From: an uncultured Gammaproteobacteria bacterium
Lineage (GTDB): Bacteria > Patescibacteriota > Patescibacteriia > UBA9934 > GWF2-40-263
Direction: 5' to 3'
Length of the DNA stretch: 42,614 nucleotides
Assembly (NCBI GenBank): GCA_964428465.1
Contig: CAYRYG010000002.1
Location: forward strand, 1 to 42,614
Every line of letters starts with the position of its first letter. Position 1 is the first letter of the stretch. A program made the translations under genes and the position numbers. The notes below the pieces were generated by a model. That model was not told the DNA's origin. It saw only the letters and a list, made by a program, of their open reading frames with translations, and did no database searches. This document shows, piece after piece, positions 23,837 through 27,000 of the stretch.

Positions 23837-24873
23837 GGCTGTTCGTCTCCTTCTGGTCCGTTGTTTCCGAACTGGGTGCCGTCGGGGAAGTCCCCGGCGA
23901 CCGGGTCCTCGGCGTCGTGGTCGTCCGACCGCGCGCCTCCCGTCAGTTCCTCCCAGGCGTCCAGCGCCCACACCGGGAGAAACCTGCGACCGGCGCGGGG
24001 GCCCTTGGGCGTGGGCGCGCGCATGGTCTCGACCGGACGCGGCGCGGACACGATGATCCGCGGCGTCGGCTTGAACTGCCAGACCCGTTCCATCCACTCG
24101 GCGGGAAACGGGAAGTCGTCGAGCGAGGTCTCCTCGGCGAAGTCGAACGTAAAGCCCTTGTCAGTGACTTCGCGCTCGACCAGGACGGCCTTCCCCGGCA
24201 GCGTGCTCCATCCCTTGGCGGTCTGGACGTACTTCGGAGGCCCCTCGACGCGATGCGCGAGCCTGGCGACGGAATCCCGGGGGGTCACGCCGGCGACGTA
24301 CTCGTCGGCGCCCTTCAGGAACCGCTGGCCGTTGATCACGAGCGAGACGCTGATGGTCGGCACCGCGCGCGTGATGTTGCCGACCGTGATGTGCAGCCCG
24401 TCCCAGTTCATCTCGTCGTGGTGGTCGCCGCCGCTGTGGAACGCCGCGAAGTCGCAGTGCGAGTGGATGGTCCCGGCCCGCAGCCAGCCCTCCATCTGTT
24501 CGCCGTCCTGGTAGTGGACGCCGCCGCCCGACCCGCGCTGCTCGGGCGCGGATGCCCGCCACTCGCGCGTCGCCGGGTTGAAGAAGAGGATGACGACGGC
24601 CTCCGTCTTCTGCCGGTCGAAGACCGCGCGGAAGAAGGAGAAGACCCGCGCGAACAGCTCCTGCGGGATCTTGCTGACGTCCAGGTCCGCGCAGGCTTCC
24701 TGCGGCCGGAGCATCGGGATGCCGTCGACCCGGACGATGGCCTCCACGACGCCGACCCGCTTGAACAGGAAGATGCCGTTGGAGGCCACGATGTAGCACA
24801 GGCTGACCCCGTCGGGGACCTGTTCGTCCCCGCGGGACTTCACGATGACCGGGATGTCCGGATTACGAGCCAT
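23833..24873 (-). CDS. JAB/MPN+ (JAMM) metalloprotease with ~150-aa C-terminal extension
   Basis: 346 aa from MARNPDIPV (GAGGA SD). Intact JAMM signature: candidate Glu in QKTEAVVILF, then HSHCDFAAFHSGGD = H-x-H-x7-S-x2-D (nt 24424-24465). Overlaps the RuvB-like stop by 11 nt. Confidence 0.85.
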   Translation of the reverse strand: MARNPDIPVIVKSRGDEQVPDGVSLCYIVASNGIFLFKRVGVVEAIVRVDGIPMLRPQEACADLDVSKIPQELFARVFSFFRAVFDRQKTEAVVILFFNPATREWRASAPEQRGSGGGVHYQDGEQMEGWLRAGTIHSHCDFAAFHSGGDHHDEMNWDGLHITVGNITRAVPTISVSLVINGQRFLKGADEYVAGVTPRDSVARLAHRVEGPPKYVQTAKGWSTLPGKAVLVEREVTDKGFTFDFAEETSLDDFPFPAEWMERVWQFKPTPRIIVSAPRPVETMRAPTPKGPRAGRRFLPVWALDAWEELTGGARSDDHDAEDPVAGDFPDGTQFGNNGPEGDEQP

Positions 24874-26026
24874 TGGTTCCTCGCGTGAGCGTGCGGCCCT
24901 GCGCCGTTCGGCCGATGCGGCCCTGGCGGACAAGCCACGGTTCGATGGTCTGCTCGACCTCGGTCTGGTCCAGGTCGAGCGCCTGGGAGAGGGTGCGCAG
25001 GCTCGCGCGTCCCCCAAGGGTCTTGAGCGCCTCCAGGTATCGGCGCTCGTCGTCGTGCAGCCCGTCCTCCCCGAACCCGCTGAGCGTGAGCGTGCGCCGA
25101 GCCTCGGCGGTCCCGACGTCGGGACGCCCGCGCGCGATCGCGGTTTCGGAAAGCTGGAGCAGGAAGTGGTTGAGCGTGCGCGGGTTGTCCCGCGCGTGCG
25201 CGACCAGCAGCCGGAGGGCGTCGTCGTCGGCCGCGTAGCCGAGCATCGACGCGCTCCGCCGCGCGATCTGCAGCATCTCGTCCTCCGCGTAGAAGGGAAG
25301 GCGGTACTGCCGGCCGAAGCGGTTGCGGAACGGCTCGAGCAGCTTGGAAGGCGCGGTCGTCGCGGCGACGATCGTGACCTCGGGAGCCGGGACGTCCGTC
25401 TTGAACGTGCCGCCACGGCGCTTCTCGACGACGGGCATGTTCCCGTCCTCCATGATGCCGTAGAGCATCTCCTGCGCCGCGGCCGTCATGCCGTGCACCT
25501 CGTCGATGAACACGAGGGAACCCCGCGTCCAACGGACGGCCGCGCGCACGACGTCGTCGCACGCGCGGAGCTGGCTGCCGACGAGCACCTGCGCGTCGAC
25601 GCCGAGCTCGTGCGCGATGGCGAGCGCGAGCGTGGTCTTGCCGAGCCCCCTCGGCCCGGAGAGCAGCACGTGCGGGAGCGCGCGCCCCTGCTTGCGGGCG
25701 GCGACGATGGCGTCGGTCATCATCTCCTTGAAGGCCGCGTGCCCGACCACCTGGTCGAAGGACGCGGGCCGCAGCCGGCCGTGCGCGTCCCCCGAGACCG
25801 TGACCCTCGTGACCGTGTCCGCGCGGATCGCGGACGCGAGCGCGCGGCGCACCGGCATCGGGAGGTCGGTGGCCGCGAGGTCTTCCGCCTCGATGGTCGC
25901 GGCGACCGTGGGCAGCGCGGCTCCCATTCGGATGAGCGACTGCAGCACATCCTCGAAGTTCCCCTCGTTGCCCGTCGAGGCAAGGAAGGGACGCACGATT
26001 TCCTCGACGACGCGTCGAAGCGACAT
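24863..26026 (-). CDS. divergent RuvB-family AAA+ ATPase with ~90-aa N-terminal HhH-like extension
   Basis: 387 aa. Colinear with RuvB:
- RP.SFDQVVGH
- Walker A GPRGLGKTT
- Walker B LVFIDEVH
- LYGIMEDG
- sensor-1 VAATT
- PFRNRFG
- a C-terminal winged helix: GLHDDERRYLEAL...TIEPWLVRQGRIGRTAQGRTLT

Several invariant RuvB residues are changed (GPPG to GPRG, RSRGTPRIANRLL to HARDNPRTLNHFL). Confidence 0.88.
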   Translation of the reverse strand: MSLRRVVEEIVRPFLASTGNEGNFEDVLQSLIRMGAALPTVAATIEAEDLAATDLPMPVRRALASAIRADTVTRVTVSGDAHGRLRPASFDQVVGHAAFKEMMTDAIVAARKQGRALPHVLLSGPRGLGKTTLALAIAHELGVDAQVLVGSQLRACDDVVRAAVRWTRGSLVFIDEVHGMTAAAQEMLYGIMEDGNMPVVEKRRGGTFKTDVPAPEVTIVAATTAPSKLLEPFRNRFGRQYRLPFYAEDEMLQIARRSASMLGYAADDDALRLLVAHARDNPRTLNHFLLQLSETAIARGRPDVGTAEARRTLTLSGFGEDGLHDDERRYLEALKTLGGRASLRTLSQALDLDQTEVEQTIEPWLVRQGRIGRTAQGRTLTRGTNGS

Positions 26027-26076
26027 GGATCACCCCGTGAAAGGACTCCCCGCCGCCGGATGCGGCAGGAGGGGTT

Positions 26077-26105
26077 GTTCTAGTCCAATCGGCGCGGTTT
26101 GTCAA
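26077..26105 (-). promoter_or_regulatory. putative promoter of the RuvB-like/JAB/E1/Ubl operon (TTGACA-N17-TAGAAC)
   Basis: Read on the minus strand. Followed by AACCCCTCC...TCCTTTCAC...GGGGTGAtccATG. Confidence 0.5.
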
Positions 26106-26114
26106 GGCGGAGGG

Positions 26115-26145
26115 AAATAAAAAAGAGCAGCGACTAGCGCTGCTT
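26115..26145 (-). terminator. intrinsic terminator after the 288-aa gene
   Basis: Minus strand reads AGCAGCG-ctagt-CGCTGCT then CTTTTTTATTTCC. The stem includes the TAG stop. Confidence 0.6.
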
Positions 26146-27000
26146 CGAGGTCCGGCGCTCGATCGGCTTCACGAGCACGATCGGGCGGCCGGTGTTGGCG
26201 TACTTCTCGGCCTGGAGGATGGCCTCCGCCCAGTAGCCCGCCTTGGGGTCGGCGAGCGCCTGGAAGAGGAGGTCGATGCGCGCGTCGCCGGCGGGCGGGA
26301 CCTCGCCCCACACCTCCTGGGTCTGCAGGAAGGCCAGCTCGCGCACGGGACGCGAGATGCCGCCCCAGCCGCGGTGGCACTTGCCGCAGAACTCGTCCGG
26401 GCCCACCAGGTGGTTGCCGTGGATCGGGCAGATGCCGAGCGCCTGGTCGGGCAGCTGCCCGGCGCGGTGCAGGTCCAGCATCTTGCCGTCGACCTGGGTG
26501 CGGTCGCCGACGTCCACGCCCTGCTTCAGGAGCTGCAGCAGCGCGTAGCTGCGCTCGATGTCGACGCGCAGCGCGGCCTTGTCCGCGAAGACGATGAACG
26601 GCTTCCCGCCGCTGCGCTGGTTGAGCGCGGCCACGATGTCGTCGCGACCCATCGGCTCGTAGTTCTCGAGCAGCAGCCGGTCCGACAGCGAGTTGACGTT
26701 GCCGATCGCGAGCGCGAGCTCGGCGACGCTGCCGCCCAGGCCGCCGACCTGCACGCGCGGCCCGGCCTCGGGGGCGGGCGGCGCGACGGCGCGCCAGAGC
26801 CCGGCGATCGCGCGGGCCACGGGACGCGGCACGCCGGCGTCCTCGATGTCCTCGAAGCTGATCTCCGCCGCGATGGCGGGGACGCCGGCGCCGAGCTTGA
26901 TCAGCCTGGCGGACACCTCGGTGACGTTGACACGCCCCGCCTCCGGCAGGGACTTGTTGTATTCCTCCAGCAGGTGGAGGACCCCTTCCTTCTTGTGCAT
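26134..27000 (-). CDS. 288-aa protein: N-terminal HhH-like module (shared with the RuvB-like ATPase) plus C-terminal Cys/His zinc-ribbon-like motif
   Basis: The ATG at 27000 is preceded by GAGAGGAGAGGAGAA. VNVTEVSARLIKLGAGVPAIAAEISFEDIEDAGVPRPVARAIAGLWRA aligns (about 20/48 identical) with GNFEDVLQSLIRMGAALPTVAATIEAEDLAATDLPMPVRRALASAIRA of the ATPase. CPIHGNHLVGPDEFCGKCH is a candidate Zn site. Confidence 0.7.
   Translation of the reverse strand: MHKKEGVLHLLEEYNKSLPEAGRVNVTEVSARLIKLGAGVPAIAAEISFEDIEDAGVPRPVARAIAGLWRAVAPPAPEAGPRVQVGGLGGSVAELALAIGNVNSLSDRLLLENYEPMGRDDIVAALNQRSGGKPFIVFADKAALRVDIERSYALLQLLKQGVDVGDRTQVDGKMLDLHRAGQLPDQALGICPIHGNHLVGPDEFCGKCHRGWGGISRPVRELAFLQTQEVWGEVPPAGDARIDLLFQALADPKAGYWAEAILQAEKYANTGRPIVLVKPIERRTSKQR

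What the first reader, a model, noticed from the sequence alone, without database searches (positions are those of the whole stretch)
24863..27000. Divergent RuvB paralogue inside the operon shares an N-terminal HhH-like module with the upstream 288-aa Zn-ribbon protein
SEEN.
- The ATPase is colinear with RuvB through its large, small and winged-helix domains, but it has altered hallmark residues and a ~90-aa N-terminal extension.
- A 48-residue stretch of that extension aligns at about 40% identity with the N-terminus of the neighbouring 288-aa protein: ..LI[RK][ML]GA..P..AA.I..ED......[LV]P.PV.RA.A....RA.
- Each half resembles a helix-hairpin-helix (h..hG.G.P..A..I).
- The 288-aa protein also carries CPIH-x10-CGKCH.

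ESTABLISHED. RuvB is a hexameric dsDNA translocase recruited by RuvA, whose domain II is an (HhH)2 DNA binder.

INFERENCE. The pair may act as a self-contained DNA-binding motor and adaptor recruited to the Ubl pathway, an association I do not know from described bacterial Ubl systems. It is unlikely to be the housekeeping ruvB. There is no ruvA or ruvC nearby, its stop overlaps the JAB start, and it has its own system-specific promoter.
Basis: partly seen in the sequence, partly recalled or inferred. Interest (0 to 1): 0.7.

Follow-up and report, generated by a model that had tools for sequence, protein, structure and literature searches.

The report
RuvB-like motor in a ubiquitin-like cassette
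A divergent copy of the DNA motor protein RuvB, carrying an extra N-terminal domain that it shares with its neighbour gene, is a fixed component of a rare, undescribed seven-gene ubiquitin-like tagging cassette found almost only in the uncultured Uhrbacteria.

Summary
Window 24863-26026 (-) encodes a 387-aa protein that is RuvB by sequence and predicted fold. It falls below NCBI's RuvB cut-offs and forms its own clade (100/100 bootstrap).

Its first ~72 residues are homologous to the N-terminus of the upstream 288-aa Zn-ribbon protein (BLASTP 43% over 47 aa, E 3e-8; profile-profile E 4.7e-12). All ATPase catalytic residues are intact, and the basic wing that binds DNA in RuvB is largely kept.

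In every clade locus recovered (24 locus records, about 10-12 lineages), the gene sits in the same cassette wherever the contig is long enough:
- 288-aa protein
- RuvB-like ATPase, JAB peptidase, ThiF-type E1 and Ubl (one overlapping or close-packed gene string)
- two ~1000-aa paralogues

No ruvA or ruvC lies nearby. The cassette is absent from IMG/VR viral contigs, and about 6 of 185,579 species genomes carry it.

The helix-hairpin-helix label is not supported by sequence. Fold hints are weak, and the module is acidic, so a protein-docking role is at least as likely as DNA binding.

My best reading is a dedicated, RuvA-independent ring motor on nucleic acid, coupled to its partner through the shared module. 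The function itself is inferred, and I found no description of this cassette in the literature searched.

The parts
24863..26026 (-). RuvB-like AAA+ ATPase gene (387 aa), the first gene of the RuvBL-JAB-E1-Ubl operon
   Evidence: Pfam RuvB_N, AAA_lid_4 and RuvB_C. NCBIfam RuvB match below cut-off. AF2 plus Foldseek: RuvB is the best fold match. Distinct clade.
25811..26026 (-). N-terminal ~72-aa five-helix module of the ATPase (residues 1-72), homologous to the N-terminus of the 288-aa protein
   Evidence: BLASTP E 3e-8. hhalign E 4.7e-12. Joint alignment A4. AF2 helices 3-18, 21-33, 39-42, 47-53 and 57-69, with pLDDT 92-97.
25292..25774 (-). Large ATPase domain (residues 85-245), with Walker A GPRGLGKTT, Walker B FIDEVHG, the presensor-1 beta-hairpin, sensor-1 ATT and Arg finger RNRFG
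   Evidence: Alignment with 26 canonical RuvB sequences. Diagnostic substitutions.
25082..25291 (-). Small ATPase (lid) domain (residues 246-315) with sensor-2 RDNPR
   Evidence: Pfam AAA_lid_4, weak match. Alignment.
24881..25075 (-). C-terminal winged-helix head domain (residues 318-382) ending in the basic wing R373-T-A-Q-G-R378
   Evidence: Pfam RuvB_C 3.3e-14. Mapped to the DNA-contacting arginines R310, R312 and R315 of S. thermophilus RuvB (PMC9477746; alignment).
26027..26133 (-). Intergenic region holding the terminator tail of the 288-aa gene, a promoter-like TTGACA (26105-26100)-N17-TAGAAC (26082-26077) site, and a leader with a GC hairpin followed by TCCTTTCAC
   Evidence: The same architecture lies upstream of Big1 and Big2 and is repeated in 10 loci.
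26134..27000 (-). 288-aa partner protein gene (the mechanical ORF runs to 27033), which forms its own transcription unit
   Evidence: 16 homologues, all in this cassette, with no Pfam, NCBIfam, PHROG or PADLOC match. AF2 pLDDT 79.
26782..27000 (-). Shared N-terminal module in the 288-aa protein (residues 12-84 of the 299-aa ORF)
   Evidence: AF2 helices 15-27, 37-49, 52-55, 60-65 and 70-81 give the same five-helix topology.
26374..26430 (-). Zn-ribbon-like motif CPIH-x10-CGKCH
   Evidence: C202, P203, H205, C216 and C219 are invariant in 15 sequences. The motif is absent from the distant phage-associated subfamily.
26164..26193 (-). Invariant C-terminal tail TGxPIVLVKP of the 288-aa protein, predicted to be disordered; a candidate docking motif
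   Evidence: Invariant columns T281-P290. pLDDT falls to 66 and then 44.
23833..24873 (-). JAB/JAMM peptidase gene (346 aa), whose start overlaps the ATPase stop by 11 nt
   Evidence: NCBIfam PRTRC_A 7.6e-10, sub-threshold. The motif E...HSHCDFxAxHSxGD is invariant in 6 loci. Overlap read.
23126..23836 (-). ThiF-type E1 adenylating enzyme gene (236 aa), joined to the JAB gene by a GTGA overlap
   Evidence: Pfam ThiF 1.9e-17. PRTRC_ThiF 2.2e-15, sub-threshold. GxGGVG, RQ, VDN and an invariant Cys in M..CEE.
22687..23121 (-). Ubl gene (144 aa) with a SAP/Rho_N-like N-terminus, an acidic linker and a beta-grasp-like C-terminal domain ending in SG followed by DKA
   Evidence: Rho_N 0.0044. C-termini LEFVK[PK]SGDKA are conserved in 5 of 6 loci, with a related variant (LEFTKVSGGKS) in the sixth. 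Weak hits go only to beta-grasp families (ThiS 5e-4, TGS, ThiS-like, Ub-Mut7C).
19549..22563 (-). Big1, a 1004-aa protein of unknown function with its own promoter and terminator
   Evidence: Paralogue of Big2 (27% identity, E 1e-81). Invariant C59 and an LAFPY motif in the N-terminal domain. No Pfam match.
16538..19462 (-). Big2, a 974-aa paralogue of Big1 and the last unit of the cassette; it is followed by a terminator and then holA

Best explanation
The gene encodes a specialised paralogue of RuvB. It is an ATP-hydrolysing AAA+ protein that most likely assembles into a ring and moves along, or grips, nucleic acid through its winged-helix head domain. It works without RuvA.

In place of RuvA it carries a built-in N-terminal five-helix domain. 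A second copy of that domain heads the neighbouring 288-aa Zn-ribbon protein. I propose that this shared domain is the coupling device. It either brings the two proteins to the same partner or lets them dock on each other. The 288-aa protein would then act as the motor's adaptor or loader.

The pair is a dedicated part of a seven-gene cassette whose core is a ubiquitin-like tagging pathway:
- The JAB peptidase trims the Ubl's DKA tail to expose Gly.
- The ThiF-type E1 activates the Ubl.
- The targets are unknown, and may involve the two ~1000-aa paralogues.

**Shown.** Family, fold, intact catalytic residues, the homology of the shared domain, and the strict gene linkage.

**Inferred.** Ring formation, nucleic acid as the substrate, the adaptor role, and any defence function.
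For: 1. **RuvB family by sequence and fold.**
2. **Catalytic residues conserved.** All ATPase residues are kept, including the trans-acting Arg finger R236 and E193/D194. These only make sense in an oligomer (roles from PMC9477746).
3. **Basic wing mostly kept.** The head-domain wing [KR]-T-x-[RQK]-G-R corresponds to RuvB's DNA-contact arginines. R378 is invariant and position 373 is R or K in 18 of 19 clade members.
4. **Separate, rare clade.** 19 protein clusters, then a gap down to 31-38% identity. 100/100 bootstrap. About 6 of 185,579 species genomes carry it.
5. **Strict linkage.** All 24 clade locus records (about 10-12 lineages) carry the same cassette wherever the contig reaches. No other RuvB-like locus among about 150 fetched carries a JAB, Ubl, 288-aa or Big gene. 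The single partial exception is L154, a phage-like contig with an E1 relative beside a RuvB-like gene.
6. **No RuvA or RuvC.** Neither is in the window. Canonical ruvB loci fetched here have a ruvA-like ORF adjacent.
7. **Shared-domain homology is significant.** E 4.7e-12. It is ancient and shows little or no sign of gene conversion: same-locus identity is 0.29 and cross-locus 0.26, from five loci with no significance test. Both copies therefore appear to be separately maintained.
8. **Docked N-domain.** AF2 places it against the core with pTM 0.89.
9. **Other nucleic-acid-type modules in the cassette.** A SAP/Rho_N-like domain on the Ubl and a Zn-ribbon on the 288-aa protein.
10. **An independent pairing.** The phage-like contig L154 has a close relative of this E1 next to a RuvB-like gene.
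Against: - No experiment or complex model supports ring formation, DNA binding or a RuvBL-288 contact.
- The shared module is acidic (net -1 to -6). It has no detectable sequence relation to HhH families or to RuvA.
- One of RuvB's four DNA-contact arginines (R291) is not kept. A second is Gln in the window protein.
- The 288-aa gene is a separate transcription unit. In one lineage it lies on the opposite strand (L120).
- RuvB belongs to the AAA+ superclade that also holds protein unfoldases, so a protein substrate is not excluded.
- No E2 was identified, so protein conjugation by the Ubl arm is itself unproven. A sulfur-carrier role for an E1-only system is possible.
Confidence: 0.5

Rival explanations
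1. The RuvB fold has been repurposed as a protein-remodelling motor, either an unfoldase or a segregase. It would recognise Ubl-tagged proteins and hand them to the translationally coupled JAB peptidase. This is the way the Rpt ring works with Rpn11 in the proteasome, and the way Mpa/ARC acts on Pup conjugates. The shared N-terminal module would be a Ubl- or substrate-binding domain.
For: - The ATPase stop overlaps the JAB start, and the four genes RuvBL-JAB-E1-Ubl form one operon.
- The module is acidic and helical, more like a protein-binding domain than a DNA-binding one.
- RuvB is classed with ClpX, Lon and HslU in the presensor-1-insert superclade (PMC9477746).
- The presensor-1 hairpin sequence differs from canonical RuvB.
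- Ubl plus AAA+ pairings are established in eukaryotes, archaea and actinobacteria (my own knowledge).
Against: - The closest structures by far are DNA-translocating RuvB rings.
- The basic DNA-binding wing of the head domain is retained.
- No aromatic pore-loop motif typical of unfoldases is evident in the alignment.
- No protease partner is encoded.
Confidence: 0.2
2. The cassette is a maintenance, replication or conflict module of a mobile element or degraded prophage, analogous to PRTRC on plasmids. The RuvB-like protein would act as the element's own DNA-processing ATPase. The Ubl-type genes would serve the element rather than a host defence function.
For: - The JAB and E1 are closest to PRTRC system protein A and PRTRC ThiF.
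- The cassette lies in different housekeeping neighbourhoods in different genomes.
- A tRNA-Thr gene lies just upstream.
- Distant homologues of the 288-aa protein occur in phage-like contigs and in a 595-kb phage.
- A relative of the E1 lies next to a RuvB-like gene on a phage-like contig.
Against: - No integrase, replication initiator, ParB or structural phage gene lies in or beside the cassette.
- No clade member or 288-family member was found in IMG/VR viral contigs.
- The PRTRC matches are far below their cut-offs.
Confidence: 0.15
3. It is simply the organism's housekeeping RuvB, fast-evolving as in many reduced CPR genomes, and its position next to Ubl genes is coincidental.
For: - The core is colinear with RuvB, with all catalytic residues.
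- Whether a second ruvB exists in the same genome could not be checked.
Against: - It is linked to the same six other genes in all 24 loci, across changing flanks.
- It is present in only about 6 species genomes of 185,579.
- It forms a separate clade with 100/100 bootstrap.
- It scores below the equivalog cut-offs.
- There is no ruvA nearby.
Confidence: 0.05

Closest known systems
Canonical RuvB of the RuvAB(C) Holliday-junction branch-migration machinery (for example PDB 6BLB, 1IN4, 7PBL, 8EFV)
   Same: - It has the same three-domain architecture: large ATPase domain with presensor-1 hairpin, lid, and winged-helix head.
- Identity is 30-34%, TM is 0.88-0.90 and rmsd is about 2 A.
- All catalytic and trans-acting residues are kept.
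- Most of the basic DNA-binding wing is kept.
   Different: - It has an extra ~72-aa N-terminal domain plus a linker.
- It carries clade-fixed substitutions (GH, GPRG, IHG, RDNPR, W166).
- Its hairpin sequence is altered.
- It has no adjacent ruvA or ruvC.
- It scores below the NCBIfam cut-offs and forms a separate clade.
- It is embedded in a Ubl operon.
PRTRC (ParB-related, ThiF-related cassette; NCBIfam TIGR03735 protein A and TIGR03736 ThiF)
   Same: - These are the best family matches for the cassette's JAB and E1.
- Both systems pair a JAB and a ThiF-type E1 with a DNA-handling protein in a patchily distributed cassette. My description of PRTRC's composition comes from the NCBIfam names and my own knowledge.
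   Different: - The scores are far below cut-off (38.7 vs 101.8; 56.6 vs 144.75).
- There is no ParB homologue.
- No match to PRTRC proteins B-F was found.
- The DNA-handling partner here is a RuvB-like AAA+ protein.
Bacterial Ubl-conjugation operons: CBASS Cap2/Cap3, Bil and Bub (operon types 6a-6e of Iyer, Burroughs and Aravind 2006, PMC1779556; Bub in PMC11601596)
   Same: - An E1-like adenylating enzyme, a JAB/JAMM peptidase and a small Ubl whose C-terminal Gly is exposed by trimming.
- A mobile, patchy distribution.
- An accessory Zn-finger protein was noted in some of those operons.
   Different: - No recognisable E2 (UBC-like) domain and no E2-E1 fusion was found.
- None of the described types contains an AAA+ or RuvB-like ATPase.
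- There are four additional unannotated proteins.
Ubl-plus-AAA+ pairs: Pup with Mpa/ARC, SAMP/ubiquitin with Cdc48 or the proteasomal Rpt ring and Rpn11 (my own knowledge)
   Same: A ubiquitin-like tag, a JAMM peptidase and a ring ATPase are encoded or act together.
   Different: Those ATPases belong to the classical AAA clade and thread proteins. This one belongs to the RuvB family, whose known members translocate double-stranded DNA.
(HhH)2 / SAM-like helical domains: RadA/Rad51 N-terminal domain, ERCC1-XPF C-terminal domains, RuvA domain II
   Same: - The module is a compact five-helix domain with two G-x-x-P hairpins.
- The only recurring Foldseek hits of the 288-aa model are HhH-containing proteins. 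RadA N-terminal domain gives 27% identity over 48-56 columns at probability 0.5. ERCC1-XPF and AlkA/Mag also recur.
- ERCC1-XPF shows that such domains can serve heterodimerisation (my own knowledge).
   Different: - No hit is significant (E about 1-4).
- No Pfam HHH family matched any of 30 members.
- hhalign against a RuvA profile gives E 0.61.
- The module is acidic.

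Membership tests
RuvB (Holliday junction branch migration helicase) | Three-domain architecture: RuvB_N P-loop domain, AAA lid and C-terminal winged helix | tested here: met
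   Pfam matches at 85-243, 246-314 and 321-382. Foldseek TM 0.88-0.90 to RuvB structures.
RuvB (Holliday junction branch migration helicase) | Score at or above the curated equivalog cut-off (NF000868 282 bits; TIGR00635 299 bits) | tested here: not met
   225.5 and 193.2 bits.
RuvB (Holliday junction branch migration helicase) | Intact Walker A and B, sensor 1, Arg finger and sensor 2 | tested here: met
   K130/T131, D175/E176, T224, R236 and R283 are invariant in 45 aligned sequences.
RuvB (Holliday junction branch migration helicase) | Head-domain arginines that contact DNA (S. thermophilus R291, R310, R312, R315) | tested here: inconclusive
   The R315 equivalent, R378, is invariant. Position 373 is R or K in 18 of 19 clade members. 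The middle Arg is present in most members but is Gln in the window protein. R291 is not kept, though it is also variable in canonical RuvB. The mapping onto 7PBL residue numbers is my own offset estimate.
RuvB (Holliday junction branch migration helicase) | Works with RuvA: ruvA adjacent or elsewhere in the genome, and a RuvA domain III binding surface on helix alpha3 and the presensor-1 hairpin | tested here: not met
   No RuvA in the 42.6-kb window or in the cassette of any clade locus. The hairpin sequence differs from the canonical one. Presence elsewhere in the genome could not be tested.
RuvB (Holliday junction branch migration helicase) | Groups with orthodox RuvB in a phylogeny | tested here: not met
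   NJ tree on 298 core columns. The split of 19 clade members from 26 canonical sequences has 100/100 bootstrap.
Helix-hairpin-helix / (HhH)2 domains (Pfam HHH clan; RuvA domain II) | Sequence-profile match to an HHH family or to RuvA domain II | tested here: not met
   No HHH family matched any of 30 module sequences at E up to 10. The PDB profile search found nothing relevant. hhalign against 23 RuvA sequences gives E 0.61.
Helix-hairpin-helix / (HhH)2 domains (Pfam HHH clan; RuvA domain II) | Fold: two helix-hairpin-helix units packed as a compact helical domain | tested here: inconclusive
   Two independent AF2 models give the same five-helix topology. Foldseek hits to RadA N-terminal domain, ERCC1-XPF and AlkA have E about 1-4 and probability at most 0.5. 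No domain-only model could be made.
PRTRC system | PRTRC protein A (JAB) and PRTRC ThiF above cut-off | tested here: not met
   38.7 bits against 101.8, and 56.6 bits against 144.75. These are the best matches, but they are sub-threshold.
PRTRC system | ParB-family protein and PRTRC proteins B-F in the cassette | tested here: not met
   No NCBIfam or Pfam hit for the other five cassette proteins.
Bacterial Ubl-conjugation systems (CBASS Cap2/3, Bil, Bub) | E1-like adenylating enzyme with a nucleotide-binding motif and a candidate catalytic Cys | tested here: met
   Pfam ThiF 1.9e-17. GxGGVG, RQ, VDN and the Cys of M..CEE are invariant in 6 loci.
Bacterial Ubl-conjugation systems (CBASS Cap2/3, Bil, Bub) | JAB/JAMM peptidase with E...HxHx7Sx2D | tested here: met
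   TEA and HSHCDFAAFHSGGD are invariant.
Bacterial Ubl-conjugation systems (CBASS Cap2/3, Bil, Bub) | Beta-grasp Ubl with a C-terminal Gly | tested here: inconclusive
   A conserved ...SG followed by DKA. Only weak hits were found, but all are to beta-grasp families. No structure was predicted.
Bacterial Ubl-conjugation systems (CBASS Cap2/3, Bil, Bub) | E2 (UBC-like) domain with a catalytic Cys or Ser | tested here: not met
   No E2-type Pfam, NCBIfam or PADLOC hit in any cassette protein. The invariant Cys59 domain of Big1/Big2 is a candidate that could not be tested.

The most novel reading that the evidence does not exclude
The cassette is a new kind of ubiquitin-like system in which tagging is mechanically coupled to a RuvB-type ring motor. 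There are two versions of this reading:
- The motor tracks along DNA and brings the E1/JAB/Ubl machinery to DNA-bound targets, for instance invading phage or plasmid nucleoprotein.
- The RuvB fold has been converted into an extractor of Ubl-tagged proteins that works with the overlapping JAB gene product. That would be a bacterial counterpart of Cdc48 or Rpt-Rpn11, built on a DNA-motor scaffold.

In both versions the duplicated N-terminal domain would be a new docking module that joins the motor and its Zn-ribbon adaptor.
Probability: 0.25. Interest if true: 0.85.

Novelty: new variant of a known kind. Interest (0 to 1): 0.62.

Why it matters
- **Bacterial ubiquitin-like systems.** CBASS Cap2/3, Bil and Bub are a recent and active field. 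Neither the 2006 survey of prokaryotic Ubl operons nor the Bub paper, both read here, describes a type with an AAA+ motor. A RuvB-family ATPase fixed inside such an operon would link protein tagging to a DNA motor, or show a DNA motor converted to protein work.
- **RuvB biology.** It gives a natural example of a RuvB that has dispensed with RuvA and acquired its own N-terminal domain. That bears on how RuvA domain III regulates the ring.
- **The shared module.** The ~72-aa module and the 288-aa family are unannotated. The family has distant relatives in huge phages, so characterising it would annotate a family spanning CPR bacteria and their likely viruses.
- **Practical limit.** The hosts are uncultured, so testing needs heterologous reconstitution.

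Tried and rejected
1. **Exact-sequence look-up of the window protein.** It is not on record.
2. **HhH tests.**
   - A Pfam scan of 30 module sequences at E up to 10 gave only scattered one-off hits, such as E1-N and DUF7407.
   - A PDB profile search found nothing relevant.
   - hhalign against a RuvA profile built from 23 ruvAB loci gave E 0.61. The best local match fell on RuvA domain III, not domain II.
   - The RuvA set is mostly from Mycoplasma relatives, so this test has limited breadth.
3. **Foldseek of the 288-aa model.** Nothing significant against PDB or BFVD. Both structure-prediction jobs went on full-length proteins, so no domain-only model could be searched.
4. **Canonical RuvB in the same genome.** Cluster look-up gave no names. 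The context of one ordinary RuvB came from an unrelated assembly. This is unresolved.
5. **Big1/Big2 N-terminal domain.** No Pfam match at E up to 5. The search for homologous proteins with alignment A7 returned nothing, although orthologues exist in fetched loci, so that search was wasted.
6. **Leader RNA.** RNAalifold on a MAFFT alignment of the leaders predicted no consensus structure, because the stems differ in length. Single-sequence folds do show the hairpins. Rfam has no match in the cassette.
7. **Concerted evolution of the two module copies.** Little or no signal: 0.29 against 0.26 identity, from five loci with no significance test.
8. **Literature.** No paper in the held library combines RuvB with ThiF/JAB/ubiquitin-like in bacteria. 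Iyer et al. 2006 and the Bub paper do not mention an AAA+ partner.
9. **Considered and rejected:**
   - The similarity is compositional chance. Rejected.
   - The cassette is phage-borne. Rejected.

Full report
**What is at the coordinates**

The window is GC-rich (about 0.65-0.70 over most of its length). The genes of interest lie on the minus strand.
- ORF 24863-26026 encodes 387 aa.
- ORF 26134-27033 encodes 299 aa.
- Downstream, on the same strand, follow:
  - a JAB peptidase (23833-24873), whose ATG lies 8 nt before the ATPase stop
  - a ThiF-type E1 (23126-23836, GTGA overlap)
  - a 144-aa Ubl (22687-23121)
  - two ~1000-aa proteins (19549-22563 and 16538-19462)
  - the housekeeping holA

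**The ATPase is a RuvB-family protein but not an orthodox RuvB**

- Pfam finds RuvB_N (2.6e-34), the RuvB lid (weak) and the RuvB winged helix (3.3e-14), colinear from residue 85.
- The two NCBIfam RuvB equivalog models score 225.5 and 193.2 bits. Both are below their cut-offs of 282 and 299.
- An AlphaFold2 model built on 45 sequences has pLDDT 93.5 and pTM 0.89.
- Its 47 best PDB matches are all RuvB chains. Full-length chains reach TM 0.88-0.90, rmsd about 2 A and 30-34% identity over about 300 columns. Clamp-loader subunits come next, at E 5e-12. The first ~85 residues have no counterpart.
- In the 5.8-billion-protein collection there are 19 clusters at 48-100% identity that cover the full length. 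There is then a sharp drop to ordinary RuvB at 31-38% identity covering only residues ~85-382.
- A neighbour-joining tree on 298 core columns separates the 19 from 26 canonical sequences in 100 of 100 bootstraps. Identity is 57% within the clade and 34% between the groups.
- The catalytic apparatus is complete: K130/T131, D175/E176, T224, R236, R283 and trans-acting E193/D194. The changes fixed in the clade are neighbours of these residues: GQ>GH, GPPG>GPRG, DEIHR>DEIHG, RGTPR>RDNPR, L166W, E185Q and D327E.
- Four head-domain arginines contact DNA in S. thermophilus RuvB (PMC9477746). By my offset mapping onto the alignment:
  - The equivalent of R315 is invariant (R378).
  - That of R310 is Arg or Lys in 18 of 19 clade members.
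  - The middle one is Arg in most members but Gln in the window protein.
  - R291 is not kept.

**The shared module is real**

- BLASTP aligns residues 23-69 of the ATPase with 36-82 of the 299-aa ORF at 43% identity, E 3e-8.
- When the ATPase is searched against every six-frame ORF of the window, the neighbour is the only other hit (E 1.9e-6).
- Profiles of the two families' N-termini align with probability 97.6% and E 4.7e-12 over 64 columns.
- A joint alignment shows the homology runs from residue 1 to about 72 of the ATPase.
- The two independent AF2 models give the same five-helix topology.
- A profile search of 1.84 billion representative proteins finds the module in only three settings. 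These are the ATPase clade, the 288-aa family, and a more distant family of ~290-aa proteins. A few low-complexity giants also appear and look spurious.
- Module identity within a genome (0.29) is barely higher than between genomes (0.26), from five loci. The duplication is therefore old and both copies appear to be maintained independently.

**Is it helix-hairpin-helix?**

This is not shown.
- No HHH family matches any of 30 module sequences, even at E 10.
- The PDB sequence-profile search finds nothing relevant.
- A profile of 23 RuvA proteins, taken from ruvAB loci fetched here, aligns at E 0.61.
- The two halves of the module resemble each other only at P=0.039.
- The one positive hint comes from the non-significant Foldseek hits of the 288-aa model. 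They are dominated by HhH-containing proteins: RadA N-terminal domain (27% identity, probability 0.5), ERCC1-XPF, and AlkA/Mag glycosylases.
- The module carries net charge -1 to -6 in all ten copies examined.

I therefore treat it as a small SAM/HhH-like helical domain whose role is at least as likely to be protein docking as DNA binding. Protein docking is what ERCC1-XPF and RuvA domain III do (my own knowledge).

**The 288-aa protein**

- It has no match in Pfam, NCBIfam, PHROGs or PADLOC.
- It also has an invariant C-terminal tail, TGxPIVLVKP, that AF2 leaves disordered. That pattern is typical of a docking motif.
- The distant ~290-aa subfamily is homologous over its whole length (HMM E 1e-20 to 1e-25) but lacks the Cys/His ligands.
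- That subfamily occurs on a phage-like contig and in a 595-kb uncultured phage, never next to a RuvB-like gene.

**The cassette**

- Contexts of five homologues show the same seven genes in the same order, but with different housekeeping flanks.
- tblastn with the seven window proteins against all fetched loci gives the following:
  - Every clade locus (12 records from genomes, 14 from metagenomes; about 10-12 lineages) carries the cassette as far as the contig reaches.
  - One lineage (L120) has the 288-aa, Big1 and Big2 genes inverted and divergent from the ATPase operon.
  - None of the other ~150 RuvB-like loci has a JAB, Ubl, 288-aa or Big gene.
- Only about six of 185,579 GTDB species representatives have it. 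These are Uhrbacteria, plus MAGs that I take to be mislabelled.
- It is absent from IMG/VR.
- The cassette is four transcription units. Each ends in an intrinsic terminator and each is preceded by a TTGAC[AG]-N17-TA[GA]A[AG]C site.

The Ubl arm looks functional:
- The JAMM motif is invariant.
- The E1 keeps GxGGVG, the Arg/Lys/Asp of the adenylation site, and an invariant Cys.
- The Ubl ends in SG followed by DKA, and gives weak hits only to beta-grasp families.
- No E2 was found.
- The best family matches of the JAB and E1 are PRTRC protein A and PRTRC ThiF, far below cut-off.

**Mechanism**

The best-supported reading is a dedicated, RuvA-independent RuvB-type ring motor. It acts on nucleic acid and is coupled through the duplicated N-terminal domain to the 288-aa Zn-ribbon protein. 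Both serve the Ubl pathway encoded beside them.

- **Shown:** family and fold, catalytic competence at the sequence level, module homology, and gene linkage.
- **Inferred:** hexamer formation (from the conserved trans-acting residues), nucleic acid as the substrate (from the retained basic wing and from the family), and the adaptor role.

The main rival is that the ring acts on Ubl-tagged proteins together with the overlapping JAB. It draws support from operon structure and from the acidic module. It is weakened by the retained DNA-binding wing.

An independent E1-plus-RuvB-like neighbourhood on the phage-like contig L154 hints that the pairing is not accidental. This is a single case.

**Novelty**

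Full-text searches found no paper linking RuvB with ThiF, JAB or ubiquitin-like systems in bacteria. The survey of prokaryotic Ubl operons and the Bub paper list no AAA+ partner.

The parts belong to known kinds. The N-terminal module, the 288-aa family, the Big1/Big2 family and the combination are undescribed, so I rate it a new variant of a known kind.

Noticed in passing
window 26027-26133, 22564-22686 and 19463-19548 (minus strand); also upstream of the RuvB-like, Big1 and Big2 genes in L001, L003-L006 and L009-L012: A cassette-specific 5' leader. After the -10 box comes a 5-10 bp GC hairpin whose sequence differs between copies while the pairing is kept (23 of 24 leaders). A pyrimidine-rich motif follows (TCCTTTCAC or TCCTTTACAA), then the ribosome-binding site. 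In some copies UCCUU is complementary to the AAGGA of the RBS. Rfam has no match.
   Followed up: partly
window 27001-27110 (minus strand); same position in L001, L003, L004 and L006: The 288-aa gene has a different conserved leader, with a small hairpin (GTCCCATT..GGGAC) and a GA-rich stretch (CTCCTC-GAGAGAGTC-GAGAGGAGAGGAG).
   Followed up: no
L089-L094; L095:11965-13056 (LR756511.1, a 595-kb uncultured phage): A distant full-length subfamily of the 288-aa protein. It has the same N-terminal module but no Zn-ribbon cysteines. It occurs on a phage-like contig (phrog_6452 on L093) and in a huge phage. It is usually followed by a conserved ~320-370-aa protein of unknown function, or in the huge phage by a VWA protein.
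   Followed up: partly
L154:7876-8859 and about 10001-10957: A phage-like groundwater contig (phrog_10440, a MazG-like gene and a sigma factor). It encodes a close relative of the cassette's E1 (HMM E 3e-35) 1.2 kb upstream of a RuvB-like ATPase. No JAB, Ubl, 288-aa or Big gene is present.
   Followed up: partly
window 19549-22563 and 16538-19462: Big1 and Big2 are full-length paralogues (27% identity, E 1e-81). Their conserved N-terminal domain has an invariant Cys59, Glu74, Arg80 and an LAFPY motif. Their C-terminal region gives a weak SH3_15 (Mind-bomb SH3 repeat) hit in Big2. They have no family match. The Cys domain is a candidate catalytic or thioester site.
   Followed up: partly
window 26164-26193 compared with 22687-22720: The invariant, disordered C-terminal tail of the 288-aa protein (PIVLVKP) resembles the Ubl C-terminus (LEFVKPSG-DKA). 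It could occupy the same binding groove of the E1 or the JAB.
   Followed up: no
window 22687-23121: The Ubl carries an N-terminal SAP/Rho_N-like helix-extended-helix motif and a long acidic linker. The N-terminal part is variable in length and is missing in L003.
   Followed up: partly
L120 (and L012): One Uhrbacteria lineage has the cassette rearranged. The 288-aa, Big1 and Big2 genes lie on the opposite strand, divergent from RuvBL-JAB-E1-Ubl. The transcription units are therefore separable but stay linked.
   Followed up: partly
L040-L047, L050 and L067: In Competibacteraceae and Methylococcales MAGs, a divergent RuvB-like domain (about 27-29% identity) forms the C-terminus of very long open reading frames (stop-to-stop up to ~1400-1600 codons). 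None has the N-terminal module and none has Ubl genes nearby.
   Followed up: no
window 27869-27945 (-) and 27200-27622 (+): A tRNA-Thr(CGT) gene and a small plus-strand ORF with high third-position GC lie between the cassette and the yfiH-like and polA genes. The syntenic relative L001 has only 134 bp there.
   Followed up: no
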